A stretch of 29,116 nt of DNA, from NCBI GenBank assembly GCA_023133375.1, contig JAGLWP010000001.1, positions 1 through 29,116 on the forward strand, read 5' to 3'. The DNA comes from Candidatus Pacearchaeota archaeon (GTDB taxonomy: Archaea; Nanobdellota; Nanobdellia; Pacearchaeales; GW2011-AR1). Both the position numbers and the translations under genes were made by a program. Positions 12,385 through 15,258 of the stretch are shown piece by piece; within the stretch, counting starts at the first letter, position 1; each line of letters starts with the position of its first letter. The notes under the pieces were generated by a model. It was given only the letters and a program-made list of their open reading frames with translations, did no database searches and was not told the origin of the DNA.

Positions 12385-12452
12385 TTAAATCCTCTTTAAT
12401 TTATTATAAAATGAAAACATTCTTTATATACTTTTTGGGCTTTATAACACAG

Positions 12453-12491
12453 TCCGAAAAGTAAAAACTAAACGAGAAGTGTCCGAATAAT
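12453..12491 (-). repeat. Left box pair: ATTATTCGGACA-N16-TACTTTTCGGA on the minus strand
   Basis: TCCGAAAAGTA at 12453-12463 and TGTCCGAATAAT at 12480-12491. Confidence 0.9.
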
Positions 12492-12492
12492 T

Positions 12493-12783
12493 TTAGAGTC
12501 CTTTCCAAACAATAACCCCTGTTAAGATTAATATCAAAAAAGTCATAATGCCCATAATCCAAGAACTAATATTAATAGATTTCTTTAGTCTTGTAGTTTC
12601 TTTTTTGAGATTTAATAGACTATTTTTTAATTTGAGTGATACTGCCATCTGATAATTATCTCCTGCATTTTCATTATCTCCTAAAGCAAGAGCCATCAAA
12701 TATAAATCAGAACCTTGAAGTAATTCTTGAGCAGGATTTATTAAACTTTCATCAATTTTATCAAATTCATCATTAGTTACCAT
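12493..12783 (-). CDS. Hypothetical protein with C-terminal TM anchor
   Basis: 96 aa from ATG 12783; coiled segment followed by a hydrophobic helix. Confidence 0.7.
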   Translation of the reverse strand: MVTNDEFDKIDESLINPAQELLQGSDLYLMALALGDNENAGDNYQMAVSLKLKNSLLNLKKETTRLKKSINISSWIMGIMTFLILILTGVIVWKGL

Positions 12784-12913
12784 TTTAACTATATTTCCCA
12801 ATAATCGTAAGATTATAAACTAAGCACTTCGTTTACTTGAAGAAATTTCAATTAAATTAGAGAAAAAGGTTGAGGCAAGAAATAAAGGAAAAAAGAATTC
12901 CCATGTCCACATA

Positions 12914-13066
12914 ATGGTTAACACTGAAGAAAAGAAAAAGTTGATGAAAAAAGCTGAAAACGAAGGAGTTGATTTTTCTGAATGGTGTAGACGAAAATTT
13001 AAAGAAGATTCACAGCTTGATAGGATTGAGGAGAAGATTAATAAAATTTTAAATAAATTAGATTAA
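12914..13066 (+). CDS. Ribbon-helix-helix (CopG/MobC-like) DNA-binding protein, start uncertain; not in the ORF track
   Basis: Frame is open from 12824: ...KKNSHVHIMVNTEEKKKLMKKAENEGVDFSEWCRRKF...LDRIEEKINKILNKLD. Alternating strand plus two helices with the G-x-x-x-SEW-x-R pattern. The only ATG (12914) lies at the end of the strand. Confidence 0.65.
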   Translation: MVNTEEKKKLMKKAENEGVDFSEWCRRKFKEDSQLDRIEEKINKILNKLD

Positions 13067-13342
13067 AACACTTTTTTTGTCTTTAGAAATTTTCATATCA
13101 AATTTAAGAGGATTTTCTTTTGTTTCTCTTTCTATCCATTTTTTATCTCCTTCAAAATGGTCGTAATGATTTTCTTCTGGTTTATCTGCTACTAAATGTG
13201 TGCCAGAAATATGTAAATCTTCTGTAAATAACTTCTTGTTTGGTTTATTCATGACATCAATTATTTCTCCATTTTGTTTTGTTCTAATTATTGTTTTAAA
13301 TGGAATACCATTAATCTCAGAATCATATTCTTTTTTAGGCAT
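13058..13342 (-). CDS. Hypothetical His-x9-His protein, paralog of 16817-17254
   Basis: 94 aa from ATG 13342 (the ORF-track start 13366 overlaps the box pair). Two ungapped blocks align to the 16817-17254 protein. Confidence 0.75.
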   Translation of the reverse strand: MPKKEYDSEINGIPFKTIIRTKQNGEIIDVMNKPNKKLFTEDLHISGTHLVADKPEENHYDHFEGDKKWIERETKENPLKFDMKISKDKKSVLI

Positions 13343-13381
13343 ATTATTCGGACAGTCATCAAACATTAATTACTTTTCGGA
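13343..13381 (+). repeat. Middle box pair: ATTATTCGGACA-N16-TACTTTTCGGA
   Basis: Both boxes and the 16 nt spacing are identical to the reverse complement of 12453-12491; only the spacer sequence differs. Confidence 0.9.
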
Positions 13382-13447
13382 TTATTTTTTCTGTGTAAAA
13401 AGTAAGCCCGTATTCAGACTTTATACCCAAAGCCAAGGTTATAAAAG

Positions 13448-13455
13448 TTTATAAA
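13448..13455 (+). promoter_or_regulatory. TATA box for the three-gene HEPN module
   Basis: TTTATAAA ending 21 nt before ATG 13477, typical of a near-leaderless archaeal transcript. Confidence 0.5.
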
Positions 13456-13476
13456 ACATATTTTGATTCTTTAATT

Positions 13477-14121
13477 ATGGAAATTGAAAATTTTTCTTTG
13501 TACCATATTGGAGTAAAACTCAAGCCTCAAGTAAATATTAATGATCTAAAAAATCTTATTAAAGACTTTGCCACTTCAAATAGTTTTGAATTTAAAGAAG
13601 ATACCAGAAATAAAATCTCTGGGATATTTCCTATTGAAATCGGAATAGGCACGGAGACTATAGCAAGTAAGGAGGGGATAGATGTGAAAGTGAATGTTCC
13701 TTTAATGGCTTTAAATTTTATAGGTAAAGACCCCGAGAAGGTATCAGAGATATTTCAATTAGCAATGAAGTTTATAGACGATTCGGGGCAATATGATAAA
13801 GATTTTGTCTTCGAATTCTATGAAGTTATTGCTGAAGTAGTGATGTCAAATTCAAAATCTCCAAAAGAGATTTTAAACGAATCAGTTTCAATAAATTTAG
13901 ACGGGCTTCCAGATTCAGAAGAATTAAATGTTGCTGGAATAAGACTTATGGGGGGAGATCTTTTAAATGAAAAAGGACATTTTGAGATTGTGATAGAACC
14001 TCATCCATCAACACCTACTAAAAAATTTCTTATGAAGGTAATAAGACAAAGTAGAGACATTGAGATTATGTTTAATTTTCATAACCAATTGAAAGAATAT
14101 TTAGAAAAAATAATAGAATGA
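13477..14121 (+). CDS. Hypothetical protein, possibly TIGR04255-like; first gene of HEPN module
   Basis: 214 aa alpha/beta pattern, ATGA overlap with the next gene. Family call is inferred from context and pattern. Confidence 0.7.
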   Translation: MEIENFSLYHIGVKLKPQVNINDLKNLIKDFATSNSFEFKEDTRNKISGIFPIEIGIGTETIASKEGIDVKVNVPLMALNFIGKDPEKVSEIFQLAMKFIDDSGQYDKDFVFEFYEVIAEVVMSNSKSPKEILNESVSINLDGLPDSEELNVAGIRLMGGDLLNEKGHFEIVIEPHPSTPTKKFLMKVIRQSRDIEIMFNFHNQLKEYLEKIIE

Positions 14122-14729
14122 AACAAATGACCTCTAATATAAATCCTCCTATTAAAACATTTAATATTAATTCTACTTCATATACTTCTTCAAATATAGT
14201 ATCTGTAAGTGGGACTTTTCAAATGGATTATAACTTAAATGATCTGTCGAATTTGAAATGCACAAGTTTTTTAAAAATAGATTCAATTAATACAAAAACA
14301 GAATCTCAAGTAATTCTTTTTCCTATTAGGGAACACCAAAATAGTTTTTCTCATCTTATTTTTGAAAATACTCCAAGAATAGGATTTAGAAAAATAAATA
14401 TTAGAAAAGAAGTATACGATTACATTCAAAAAAATAATTTTCAAGAATTTTTCTTAAATTCAATAGATGAAATTGATGATATTTTGATTAGAGAGGAAAA
14501 GGATTATTTGATTGATATAACCATCAATGAAACTCCTTTTGAGGAAGAAATCTTGATAAGAATTTTTCTTCATAATAAACAAATAGGAACACTAATGAAT
14601 TTTTGGAACCAAATTCAGGATCAAATTTATGATGAAATATCCAAATTACAAGATAAAGAAAAACAAGAAAAATTAAAGAGAATAATCTCTGTTAAAGTTA
14701 TTGATTCCAAAAATGGTTACGAAATTTGA
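14118..14729 (+). CDS. Hypothetical protein with low-complexity S/T/N N-terminus and acidic C-terminal domain; HEPN partner
   Basis: 203 aa, coupled to both neighbours by overlaps. Confidence 0.75.
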   Translation: MKQMTSNINPPIKTFNINSTSYTSSNIVSVSGTFQMDYNLNDLSNLKCTSFLKIDSINTKTESQVILFPIREHQNSFSHLIFENTPRIGFRKINIRKEVYDYIQKNNFQEFFLNSIDEIDDILIREEKDYLIDITINETPFEEEILIRIFLHNKQIGTLMNFWNQIQDQIYDEISKLQDKEKQEKLKRIISVKVIDSKNGYEI

Positions 14730-15123
14730 TTGTTTTCTTTTCAATGATGTAGGGATGAAACTCAAAGACGAACCTTTTGAAAATAATGAAGAAGCTTGTT
14801 ATAGAACATCTATTGGAAGGATTTATTATTCTGTTTTTTTAATAATTAGAGACAAACTATATTCTATGGGGAAGAGGTATGAAATTAAGCAAATACGGAG
14901 TTTTGGAGAACATGAAAAAATAATTATTTACCTGCAAACACGAATGGGACCTATAGAACTAAAACTTGGAGGATTATTGAAAAAATTAAAAGATTTGAGA
15001 GTAGATTGTGATTATGAGCTTGGGATGGAAATCCAGGTAAATAAGGTTGAAGATGCAATCTTCTTTTTTAAATCAATAAAGAATATTTTAATCCAAGATT
15101 TAAACTGGATATCAACTAATTAA
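14713..15123 (+). CDS. HEPN-domain protein
   Basis: YRTSIGRIYYSVF, GEHEKII and LKDLRVDCDY match the R-x-YY...H...LR-x-x-x-DY HEPN pattern. Start set at ATG 14713. Confidence 0.85.
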   Translation: MVTKFDCFLFNDVGMKLKDEPFENNEEACYRTSIGRIYYSVFLIIRDKLYSMGKRYEIKQIRSFGEHEKIIIYLQTRMGPIELKLGGLLKKLKDLRVDCDYELGMEIQVNKVEDAIFFFKSIKNILIQDLNWISTN

Positions 15124-15166
15124 AGGAATTTTATCTTTCATAATTTTCAATAATGGTAAGTTAAAA

Positions 15167-15237
15167 ACTTTTCGGATACTACAGACACTTTTCGGACAGA
15201 ACGAAAACTATTCGGTTAGTTTGATATTATTCGGACT
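15167..15237 (+). repeat. Right array of four boxes with 20/20/19 bp period
   Basis: TTCGG at 15171, 15191, 15211 and 15230: ACTTTTCGGATA, ACTTTTCGGACA, ACTATTCGGTTA, ATTATTCGGACT. Confidence 0.9.
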
Positions 15238-15258
15238 AAGTCGGGCTTTATTAAAAAT

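What the first reader, a model, noticed from the sequence alone, without database searches (positions are those of the whole stretch)
12437..15251. 2.8 kb recombinase-less island with symmetric ends and arm-type box arrays
Seen: eight copies of AYTWTTCGG(A) in three gene-boundary clusters: two at the left (29 bp apart, minus strand), two in the middle (29 bp apart, plus strand) and four at the right (20/20/19 bp period). The outermost boxes form an inverted pair, each followed after exactly 5 nt by the same 9-mer GGGCTTTAT in direct orientation. Cargo is accessory (RHH, orphan, HEPN module) and no integrase or transposase is present. Established: short duplicated cores with internal repeated boxes typify tyrosine-integrase attL/attR with arm sites, and asymmetric multi-site ends typify Tn7/Mu-like transposons. 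Inference: a non-autonomous cassette of an undescribed archaeal mobile element, mobilised in trans and delivering defence or toxin genes. This is the best candidate for a new system in the window.
Basis: partly seen in the sequence, partly recalled or inferred. Interest (0 to 1): 0.9.

Follow-up and report, generated by a model that had tools for sequence, protein, structure and literature searches.

The report
Transposase-less copy of promoter-targeting archaeal transposon
The 2.8 kb island is a transposase-less copy of an apparently undescribed family of cut-and-paste transposons in tiny DPANN (Pacearchaeota-type) archaea; the family carries defence genes and inserts with near base-pair precision just upstream of the TATA box of host promoters.

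Summary
There are eight boxes in three clusters (10 hits in the window against 0.95 expected), and GGGCTTTAT flanks the outermost boxes at equal distance: 7 nt after ...CGGA, not 5. Window 12446-15242 (2797 bp) is a non-autonomous DDE transposon with a perfect 9-bp target-site duplication.

In related genomes and metagenome contigs I found 17 more complete elements, 230 bp to 12.2 kb. They share the termini (AACACAG...CTGTGTT), the asymmetric box arrays (+7/+25/+36 at one end, +7/+26/+46/+57 at the other) and perfect 9-bp duplications that differ at every site. The autonomous ones encode a divergent IS5-like transposase next to the three-box end. The window keeps only that gene's last 15 codons.

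Cargo in relatives is mostly restriction-modification or other defence genes. Here it is a three-gene HEPN module.

Unexpectedly, in 17 of 18 elements the duplication lies 6±1 nt (the BRE position) from a TATA box on one side. These are often promoters of ribosomal-protein, EF-1α, Spt5 or 5S rRNA genes.

The middle cluster is a decayed end from a different sublineage. No empty site, circle or in-genome transposase was found, and this copy may now be immobile.

The parts
12422..12436 (-). Host target promoter of the membrane-protein gene 11974-12384. On the minus strand it reads BRE-like AAAAAG (12436-12431), then TATA TATATAAAG (12430-12422). It lies outside the element.
   Evidence: The sequence is. 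This stretch is shared with congeneric G002, which has no boxes, and the homology stops at about 12437. The 6-nt-plus-TATA arrangement matches 16 other insertions.
12437..12445 (+). Left copy of the 9-bp target-site duplication GGGCTTTAT.
   Evidence: It directly abuts the left terminus.
12446..12491 (+). Left, transposase-proximal ('type-1') end. Terminus AACACAG, box TCCGAAAAGT at +7, a degenerate middle box near +25 (AACGA) and box TCCGAATAAT at +36.
   Evidence: The 17-nt terminus is identical to those of G001, G077 and G104. The spacer is 84-89% identical to one sublineage of metagenome copies.
12493..12785 (-). Small cargo gene (about 97 aa from the ATG at 12785; listed as 12493-12801 from a TTG) that appears to have a hydrophobic C-terminus. 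Function unknown.
   Evidence: It is 35% identical to an ORF in G022. No Pfam, NCBIfam, PADLOC or PHROG hit.
12788..12832 (-). Remnant of the DDE transposase gene: the last 15 codons (TKCLVYNLTIIGKYS) and the stop.
   Evidence: tblastn gives 13 of 14 residues identical to the C-terminus of the G104 transposase. In translation the frame is closed by a stop just upstream.
12824..13066 (+). Ribbon-helix-helix gene. The frame is open from 12824, but the first start codon is at 12914, after the predicted beta-strand. It was probably truncated by the same deletion that removed the transposase body.
   Evidence: Translation is.
13058..13366 (-). 102-aa orphan gene whose 5' end overlaps the middle box module.
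   Evidence: No family hit.
13343..13388 (+). Middle module 'M': a decayed, inverted type-1 end. Two boxes are intact, the middle box (TTTGA) and the terminus (AAAATAA) are degenerate, and there is no duplication. It derives from a different sublineage than the left end.
   Evidence: It forms a 46-nt inverted repeat with the left end at 72%. Its spacer is 47% identical to the left end's but 84% identical to the L103/L069-type ends.
13392..13436 (+). Conserved palindromic element (TGTGTAAAAAGT ... ACTTTATAC) between M and the cargo promoter. Its role is unknown.
   Evidence: 83-91% matches in three other genera (G012, G022, G035), each upstream of a TATA-like box.
13477..14121 (+). Cargo gene 1 (214 aa): a protein with a two-repeat TBP-like fold.
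   Evidence: Its family has about 75 representatives. AlphaFold2 gives mean pLDDT 92. The top PDB fold matches are TBPs, with probability 0.93-1.0 but TM-score only 0.37-0.46.
14118..14729 (+). Cargo gene 2 (203 aa). Function unknown. It overlaps gene 1 by 4 nt.
   Evidence: 37% identical to the second gene of the same three-gene module on contig L169.
14713..15123 (+). Cargo gene 3 (136 aa from the ATG at 14713): HEPN-like.
   Evidence: PADLOC HEPN_IX E 6.7e-6 and phrog_5176 E 1.7e-10. 53% identical to the third gene on L169.
15167..15242 (+). Right, distal ('type-2') end with four boxes: 15167, 15187, 15207 (ACTATTCGGT) and 15226. The terminus is CTAAGTC (15236-15242), against the consensus CTGTGTT.
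   Evidence: Read from the outside in, the boxes lie at +7/+27/+46/+66, as at the distal ends of G077, G104 and G198.
15243..15251 (+). Right copy of the 9-bp target-site duplication GGGCTTTAT.

Best explanation
Window 12446-15242 is a non-autonomous member of a family of cargo-carrying cut-and-paste DDE transposons in Pacearchaeota-type DPANN archaea. Autonomous relatives encode one divergent IS5-like transposase of about 320-345 aa next to the three-box end. Inferred: this transposase binds the repeated 10-11-bp boxes (A[C/T]T[A/T]TTCGGAC), three at the proximal end and four at the distal end. It then pairs the ends, cuts at AACACAG...CTGTGTT and inserts with a 9-bp staggered cut. Shown: the insertion point is chosen so that the duplication ends about 6 bp (the BRE position) upstream of a TATA box, and that promoter fires away from the element. 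Here the target was the promoter of the membrane-protein gene 11974-12384. The window's copy has lost its transposase by an internal deletion, which left 15 codons and also cut off the start of the RHH gene. It carries a three-gene HEPN module and holds a relic end of a second element that appears to have nested upstream of the cargo promoter. It could now move only with a transposase supplied in trans. None is present in the assembled 75% of the genome, and the right terminus is slightly degenerate, so this copy may be a fossil.
For: Among genomes of the same family, 22 of 401 carry the box modules, with 27 matches against 6 for the reversed control.

Ten complete elements in genomes (nine of the main type plus one of a sister subfamily) and eight in metagenome contigs have perfect 9-bp flanking duplications. 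One of them is offset by 1 nt. The 9-mers differ at every site, and element lengths run from 230 bp to 12.2 kb.

The end architecture is conserved: boxes at +7/+25/+36 at one end and +7/+26/+46/+57 at the other.

A transposase lies next to the type-1 end in G104, G001, G077, L069, L084, L085, L086 and L087:
- Pfam PF01609, E 4e-19 to 9e-18.
- Best NCBIfam hit IS5_2, E about 1e-27.
- 64-78% identical across genera.
- D137, D214 and E277 are invariant, with an intact Y(2)R(3)E(6)K motif.

A remnant of that gene's C-terminus lies in the window in the expected place and orientation.

Transposase-less relatives with perfect duplications (G360, G198, G190, L101, L104, L131) show that such derivatives do transpose.

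A sister subfamily in G403 has a transposase only 27% identical and different termini (AGCTTTG). It shows the same 9-bp duplication and the same TATA spacing.

Target choice: 14 of 23 ends have a TATA-like hexamer at +23/24 (binomial p about 1e-14 or lower). In 17 of 18 complete elements a TATA lies 6±1 nt from the duplication on one side.

Congeneric G002 shares the membrane gene's BRE and TATA but has no boxes.
Against: No empty site, excision joint or circle was seen. The four congeneric genomes all differ in gene content at this place, and contigs of the source and sister samples show only the filled site.

There is only one copy in the MAG and no transposase elsewhere in its 447 kb, which is 75% complete.

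The right terminus (CTAAGTC) departs from the consensus at three of seven positions, including the last base.

Binding of the transposase to the boxes is inferred, not shown.

The transposase scores below NCBI's curated IS5 cut-off (96-115 bits against 140).

The middle module has no proven history.
Confidence: 0.92

Rival explanations
1. The boxes are operator or upstream-activating sites of a transcription factor (for example the island's RHH). That factor would control the three adjacent promoters: the membrane gene, the HEPN operon and the GGDEF gene.
For: The arrays sit at gene boundaries and point at TATA boxes. Across about 20 genera the last box lies at a fixed distance from a TATA of unrelated genes. 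The spacings of about 10n bp put the boxes on one face of the helix. This was my own working reading until.
Against: A 9-bp direct duplication lies between the boxes and the TATA at every complete element and recurs at the other end. The arrays travel with the transposase and cargo, not with the downstream gene. The same genes in relatives lack the boxes. The RHH is not conserved among elements. A secondary regulatory effect on neighbouring promoters is not excluded.
Confidence: 0.04
2. The island is an integrative element moved by a tyrosine or serine recombinase. GGGCTTTAT would be the attL/attR core and the boxes would be arm-type sites.
For: Short direct repeats flank the island and repeated boxes lie inside it. 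A tRNA-Ser gene lies 1.4 kb away, in a region that varies among congeners.
Against: No integrase was found in any of the complete elements examined. The flanking 9-mer is different at every insertion, so there is no constant core. The termini form inverted repeats and a DDE transposase is present in the autonomous members.
Confidence: 0.01
3. The inner 0.95 kb (12446-13388), bounded by the inverted L and M modules, is itself a functional unit: an invertible switch or a separate mini-transposon.
For: A 46-nt inverted repeat at 72% identity. Both arms are type-1 ends.
Against: M has a degenerate terminus and middle box and no duplication that matches L's flank (logic; sequence). The spacers of L and M are only 47% identical and belong to different sublineages. 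No invertase is present. The duplication pairs L with R.
Confidence: 0.03

Closest known systems
IS5 family insertion sequences, especially the IS903 group (from my own knowledge: 9-bp duplication, single transposase of about 307 aa)
   Same: A single DDE_Tnp_1 transposase with DDE and Y(2)R(3)E(6)K. The best NCBIfam hit is an IS5 model. Inverted termini and a 9-bp target duplication are present.
   Different: The score is below the curated IS5 cut-off. The ends are long, asymmetric arrays of 3-4 subterminal boxes instead of simple inverted repeats. Elements carry up to about 11 kb of cargo. Insertion is tied to a fixed position upstream of TATA boxes. The hosts are DPANN archaea.
Tn7 and phage Mu (multi-site asymmetric transposon ends)
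   Same: Several transposase-type repeats in different number and spacing at the two ends, and a defined target choice that avoids genes.
   Different: No TnsA/B/C/D or MuA/B-type multi-protein machinery: the only gene shared by autonomous elements is one IS5-like transposase. The duplication is 9 bp, not 5 bp. The target is a class of sites (BRE/TATA), not a single att site.
Yeast Ty3 (and Ty1, Dictyostelium TRE5-A, fission-yeast Tf1): integration guided by the transcription initiation machinery (own knowledge)
   Same: Insertion at a fixed, gene-sparing position next to core promoter elements, with a preference for highly expressed translation-apparatus genes including 5S rRNA.
   Different: Those are LTR or non-LTR retrotransposons of eukaryotes, tethered by TFIIIB, TFIIIC or Sap1. 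This is a DNA transposon in an archaeon, and any role for TBP or TFB is untested. Direct recognition of the TATA sequence is equally possible.
MITEs and 'transporter IS' (tIS): non-autonomous or cargo-carrying IS derivatives
   Same: Family members share only the ends. Sizes range from 230 bp with no gene to 12 kb with passenger genes. The window's copy lacks a transposase.
   Different: Cargo here is systematically defence-related (restriction-modification, GmrSD, HEPN), and the element is single-copy in this genome.
PIF/Harbinger transposons (eukaryotic relatives of IS5; own knowledge)
   Same: An IS5-related DDE transposase and subterminal repeats that serve as binding sites.
   Different: Harbinger makes a 3-bp TAA duplication and needs a second Myb-like protein. 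No conserved second gene was found here.

Membership tests
IS5-family DDE transposon | Encodes a DDE_Tnp_1 transposase with the DDE triad and the Y(2)R(3)E(6)K signature | tested here: met
   Met in autonomous relatives: PF01609 E 4e-19 to 9e-18, with invariant D137/D214/E277 and Y270-R273-E277-K284. The window's copy keeps only the last 15 codons.
IS5-family DDE transposon | Reaches the curated score of an ISfinder-derived IS5 model | tested here: not met
   The best model is NF033579 (IS5_2) at 93-115 bits against a cut-off of 140. The transposase is IS5-like but divergent, possibly a new group.
IS5-family DDE transposon | Terminal inverted repeats and a target-site duplication of fixed length | tested here: met
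   Termini are AACACAG...CTGTGTT. Perfect 9-bp duplications occur at 17 of 18 complete elements, and one is offset by 1 nt.
Non-autonomous transposon (MITE / deletion derivative) | Shares both ends with autonomous elements but lacks a functional transposase | tested here: met
   ends; remnant only.
Non-autonomous transposon (MITE / deletion derivative) | Evidence of mobilisation in trans: a transposase source in the same genome, multiple copies, or presence/absence polymorphism | tested here: not met
   There is a single copy and no transposase in the 447 kb MAG, which is 75% complete. No skipping joint was seen in contigs of three runs. Contigs drop rare variants, so this is weak negative evidence.
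Tn7/Mu-like transposons | Asymmetric ends with several transposase-binding repeats | tested here: met
   Boxes at +7/+25/+36 at one end and +7/+26/+46/+57(66) at the other, conserved in 9 elements. Binding itself was not tested.
Tn7/Mu-like transposons | Multi-protein machinery (TnsA/B/C or MuA/B with an AAA+ regulator) and a 5-bp duplication | tested here: not met
   The only gene shared by all autonomous elements is the IS5-like transposase. The duplication is 9 bp.
Tyrosine-recombinase integrative element (attL/attR with arm sites) | An integrase gene, and an identical core sequence at every insertion | tested here: not met
   No integrase among the element genes examined. The flanking 9-mers differ at all 18 sites.
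Transcription-factor operator / archaeal upstream activating sequence | Sites stay with the regulated gene in relatives | tested here: not met
   The DTD2-GGDEF-PCMT loci of 7 relatives, and the G002 membrane-gene promoter, have no boxes. The arrays travel with the transposase and cargo.
Initiation-complex-guided integration (works like Ty3) | Insertion at a fixed distance from core promoter elements | tested here: met
   The duplication ends 6±1 nt from a TATA in 17 of 18 elements, and the promoter points away from the element.
Initiation-complex-guided integration (works like Ty3) | Targeting depends on the bound initiation factors (here TBP/TFB) rather than on DNA sequence alone | not testable with these tools
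   This needs in vitro transposition with and without TBP/TFB.

The most novel reading that the evidence does not exclude
This transposon family finds its target through the archaeal transcription initiation complex. The transposase (or its transpososome) would recognise TBP/TFB-bound, bent promoter DNA and integrate exactly at the upstream edge of the BRE. That would be an archaeal DNA-transposon counterpart of Ty3 targeting by TFIIIB, whose Brf1 subunit is a TFB homologue. It would explain the one-sided, orientation-independent 6-bp spacing and the bias towards strongly expressed promoters (ribosomal proteins, EF-1α, Spt5, 5S rRNA). The weaker claim, that the family inserts at a fixed position relative to BRE/TATA by whatever means, I regard as about 0.9 likely on the present data.
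Probability: 0.35. Interest if true: 0.92.

Novelty: new variant of a known kind. Interest (0 to 1): 0.8.

Why it matters
It gives DPANN archaea, whose mobile elements are barely charted, a defined transposon family with clear ends, a transposase, non-autonomous derivatives and a systematic defence cargo (restriction-modification, GmrSD, HEPN). That makes it a concrete vehicle for exchanging defence systems between genera with 0.5-1 Mb genomes.

The precise placement at the upstream edge of BRE/TATA is, as far as I could find, undescribed for archaeal or bacterial DNA transposons. It would be a 'safe-haven' strategy suited to very gene-dense genomes.

If the targeting reads the initiation complex, it becomes a natural probe of archaeal promoter occupancy and a candidate tool for promoter-proximal integration. 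It also means that box arrays next to TATA boxes in these genomes should not be annotated as transcription-factor sites.

Tried and rejected
1. Transcription-factor operator reading. I held it through, because the modules lie upstream of TATA boxes of unrelated genes in about 20 genera. I dropped it once transposases and 9-bp duplications turned up.

2. Empty site. The four congeneric genomes each carry different genes between DTD2 and tRNA-Ser. G002 shares only the membrane gene and its core promoter. Logan contigs of three cold-seep runs show only the filled site, with no circle or skipping joint.

3. Transposase elsewhere in the MAG. tblastn found only the 14-residue remnant.

4. Rfam on 11500-17000 found nothing but tRNA-Ser.

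5. PADLOC and PHROGs on the island proteins gave only weak HEPN hits.

6. Viral contigs gave one match to the 17-mer, without further boxes, so a chance hit.

7. G086, a 98% complete genome with two 17-mer hits: one is an end at a contig break and the other a solo 17-mer. It gave no information on mobilisation in trans.

8. Literature. Four searches and one paper on archaeal IS found no description of this family or of TATA-linked insertion. The library is partial, so 'undescribed' is provisional.

9. Removing the 35-nt palindromic unit to the right of M would restore the canonical 9+6 spacing to the cargo TATA. This depends on boundaries I chose myself, so I do not rely on it.
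Full report
**Observation**

The pattern AYTWTTCGG occurs 10 times in the window against 0.95 expected, and none of 100 shuffles reaches 10. Eight copies form the three clusters described:
- L: 12454 and 12483, minus strand, 29 bp apart.
- M: 13343 and 13372, plus strand, 29 bp apart.
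- R: 15167, 15187, 15207 and 15226, plus strand.

GGGCTTTAT occurs only at 12437-12445 and 15243-15251. On both sides it begins 7 nt after the ...CGGA of the outermost box. The rest of the 447 kb MAG (41 contigs, 75% complete, 31% GC) has no other box cluster. An independent contig from the source run spans 11713-15474 without a difference, so both junctions are real.

**Genes**

The flanks are:
- An archaeal D-aminoacyl-tRNA deacylase (11128-11973).
- A small membrane protein (11974-12384, minus strand).
- To the right, a GGDEF protein (15488-16075).
- PCMT.
- tRNA-Ser.

Inside the island lie two 100-aa orphans, an RHH frame without a start before its beta-strand, and a tightly overlapping three-gene operon ending in a HEPN-like protein.

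**Relatives lack the island**

In congeners and other genera, DTD2 is followed directly by other genes. G003 has PCMT after about 600 bp, and G024 and G019 have GGDEF. None of these loci has boxes. G002 shares the membrane gene. Its alignment with the window is conserved through the gene's TATA and the 6-7 nt upstream of it, and breaks at about 12437, exactly where GGGCTTTAT starts.

**A false trail**

A strict two-box pattern found modules in 22 of 401 genomes of the same family (20 of 191 genera), with 27 matches against 6 for the reversed control. There are two conserved types: a 36-40-nt three-box module and a 20-bp-period array.

In 14 of 23 modules a TATA-like hexamer lies exactly 23-24 nt after the last CGG. 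The binomial p is about 1e-14 or lower. The downstream genes are unrelated to each other: S12, S6e, L3, EF-1α, a DEAD-box helicase, an RRM protein and DUF424.

**The turn**

On three contigs a type-1 module on one strand and a type-2 array on the other bracket a few kb, as in the window. In G104 and G001 the gene next to the type-1 module is a DDE transposase:
- PF01609, E 4e-19 and 6e-18.
- 64% identical across genera.
- The best NCBIfam model is IS5_2, at 93-115 bits, below the cut-off of 140.
- D137, D214 and E277 and the Y(2)R(3)E(6)K motif are invariant.

The conserved sequence stops at ...TTCGGACTGTGTT, and the next 9 nt recur in direct orientation at the other end:
- G000: GGGCTTTAT
- G077: ATTAAAACA
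- G360: TAATCCAAC
- G001: GTTGGGACC
- G104: AAATCAATA
- G190: CTCCTCACC
- L069: GTTATATTC
- L071: CTATAAAAA
- G198: TAAAGATAA, with a 1-nt offset

A scan of metagenome contigs with the 17-nt terminus gave 45 bona fide type-1 ends and eight more complete elements, 230 bp to 12.2 kb, all with perfect 9-bp duplications.

A sister subfamily in G403 is 6.9 kb long and has a transposase only 27% identical. It has different termini (AGCTTTG) and box variants, but also a perfect 9-bp duplication. That co-variation ties the ends to the enzyme.

The record titles name Pacearchaeota, Woesearchaeota and Nanoarchaeota MAGs. In a sample of the order, the terminus was found in 4 of 205 genomes of the same family and in 0 of 45 from other families.

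**Architecture**

Read from the outside in, the transposase-proximal end carries TCCGA boxes at +7, +25 and +36. The distal end carries them at +7, +26, +46 and +57 or +66.

The window's element is 12446-15242, 2797 bp. Its left end has the consensus 17-nt terminus. Its right end has four boxes and a slightly degenerate terminus (CTAAGTC).

At 12832-12788, on the minus strand, the last 15 codons of the transposase survive in the expected place and orientation (13 of 14 residues identical), closed off by a stop codon. The RHH frame opens at 12824 without a start. A single deletion joint near 12824-12832 therefore explains both truncations. This is an inference.

No other transposase is present in the MAG.

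**The middle module**

M is a type-1 end in inverted orientation with a decayed terminus and middle box. Its spacer is 47% identical to L's, but 84% identical to a different sublineage of ends. L is 84-89% identical to yet another sublineage.

M is therefore not a copy of L. It is a relic of a second element, most simply one that nested upstream of the cargo operon's promoter, as this family tends to do. It has no matching duplication, so this history remains an inference.

**Target choice**

I reconstructed the 18 pre-insertion sites. In 17 of them a TATA box (mostly TTTAAAAA or TTTATAAA) starts 6±1 nt beyond the duplication on one side only. It is preceded by a purine-rich, BRE-like hexamer and points away from the element. 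Either end of the element can face the promoter.

The window fits this pattern: ATAAAGCCC | AAAAAG | TATATAAAG, followed by the membrane gene.

The promoters hit include:
- L3, at three independent sites.
- L1, S12 and S6e.
- EF-1α, Spt5, a cold-shock protein and an RRM protein.
- RpoN (by eye).
- A 5S rRNA gene.

Selection against gene disruption cannot by itself give a ±1-nt spacing, so the choice must be mechanistic. Whether it reads the DNA sequence or the TBP/TFB-bound promoter cannot be decided here.

**Cargo**

Cargo in relatives includes:
- Type I, MmeI/Eco57I-type, EcoRI-type and C5 methyltransferase/NgoBV restriction-modification systems.
- GmrSD-HNH.
- A PLD-helicase.
- DUF4143 ATPases.
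- DUF488.
- Small DNA-binding proteins.

The window's three-gene module recurs as a unit on an unrelated contig, at 37-53% identity. Its first protein belongs to a family of about 75 representatives and folds with mean pLDDT 92 into a two-repeat TBP-like fold. The top PDB matches are TBPs, but with low TM-scores of 0.37-0.46. RnlA appears only at rank 45.

Two TBP-like repeats plus a HEPN domain recall the domain make-up of the RnlA toxin (my own knowledge). I offer that only as a lead.

**What was not found**

- No empty site, circle or polymorphism.
- No copy on viral contigs.
- No Rfam family.
- No literature on the family or on TATA-linked insertion.

**Verdict**

The island is a non-autonomous, possibly fossil, copy of an IS5-like cargo transposon with Tn7/Mu-style multi-site ends. 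The wider family shows a precise BRE/TATA-proximal target choice that I could not find described. I class it as a new variant of a known kind, with interest 0.8.

Noticed in passing
window 15255-15445: Immediately to the right of the right duplication lies a dispersed repeat of about 190 bp (conserved core ...GACTAAATTCACCTCGCTCCGCTCGGCTATTTTTAGAATTATTAAC...). It has at least 10 partial copies on other contigs of the MAG, some at contig ends, and shorter matches in other genera. A piece of it also follows the type-2 end in G317. Its nature (MITE, leader or small RNA) is unknown.
   Followed up: partly
window 13392-13436; L011 about 2828-2870; L012 about 3118-3166; L013 about 2883-2925: A conserved palindromic element of about 45 nt (TGTGTAAAAAGT-N14-ACTTTATACACA, then AAGCC) occurs in four genera at 83-91% identity. 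Each copy lies a few to 20 nt upstream of a TATA-like box. In G022 it lies between a homologue of the island's 97-aa gene and ribosomal protein L1.
   Followed up: partly
window 15488-16075: A stand-alone GGDEF protein (PF00990, E 1e-44) in a DPANN archaeon. Orthologues (66-71% identical) lie directly next to DTD2 in two other genera, so it is ancestral here and not cargo.
   Followed up: partly
window 11974-16763 and L002-L008, L014: The stretch between DTD2 and tRNA-Ser is a hot spot of gene turnover. Each of the five congeneric genomes carries different genes there (patatin-like, a 186-aa ORF, GGDEF/PCMT and others).
   Followed up: partly
L065 7765-14709 (G403): A sister subfamily: 6.9 kb, termini AGCTTTG...CAAAGCT, GCCCGA-type boxes, a 407-aa IS5-like transposase only 27% identical, a perfect duplication TCTATAATA, and the same TATA spacing.
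   Followed up: yes
L061 7264-7284 (G190): The 733-bp element in G190 sits directly beside the 8-mer ACTGTGTT, which is the consensus outer end of this family, with no boxes behind it. This may be the last trace of an earlier insertion at the same L3-operon promoter.
   Followed up: partly
L101 (metagenome contig CEPX01194354.1): The smallest member is a 230-bp gene-less element (a true MITE) with duplication TATATAAAA, inserted 6 nt upstream of the TATA of an Spt5/NusG gene.
   Followed up: partly
window 13477-14121: The first cargo protein has a confident two-repeat TBP-like fold, and its best PDB neighbours are TATA-binding proteins at low TM-score. It is found only in this element of the family, so any link with TATA targeting is probably coincidence.
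   Followed up: partly
L087 2217-2376: One 6.2 kb element carrying a type I restriction-modification system sits immediately upstream of the promoter of a 5S rRNA gene.
   Followed up: yes
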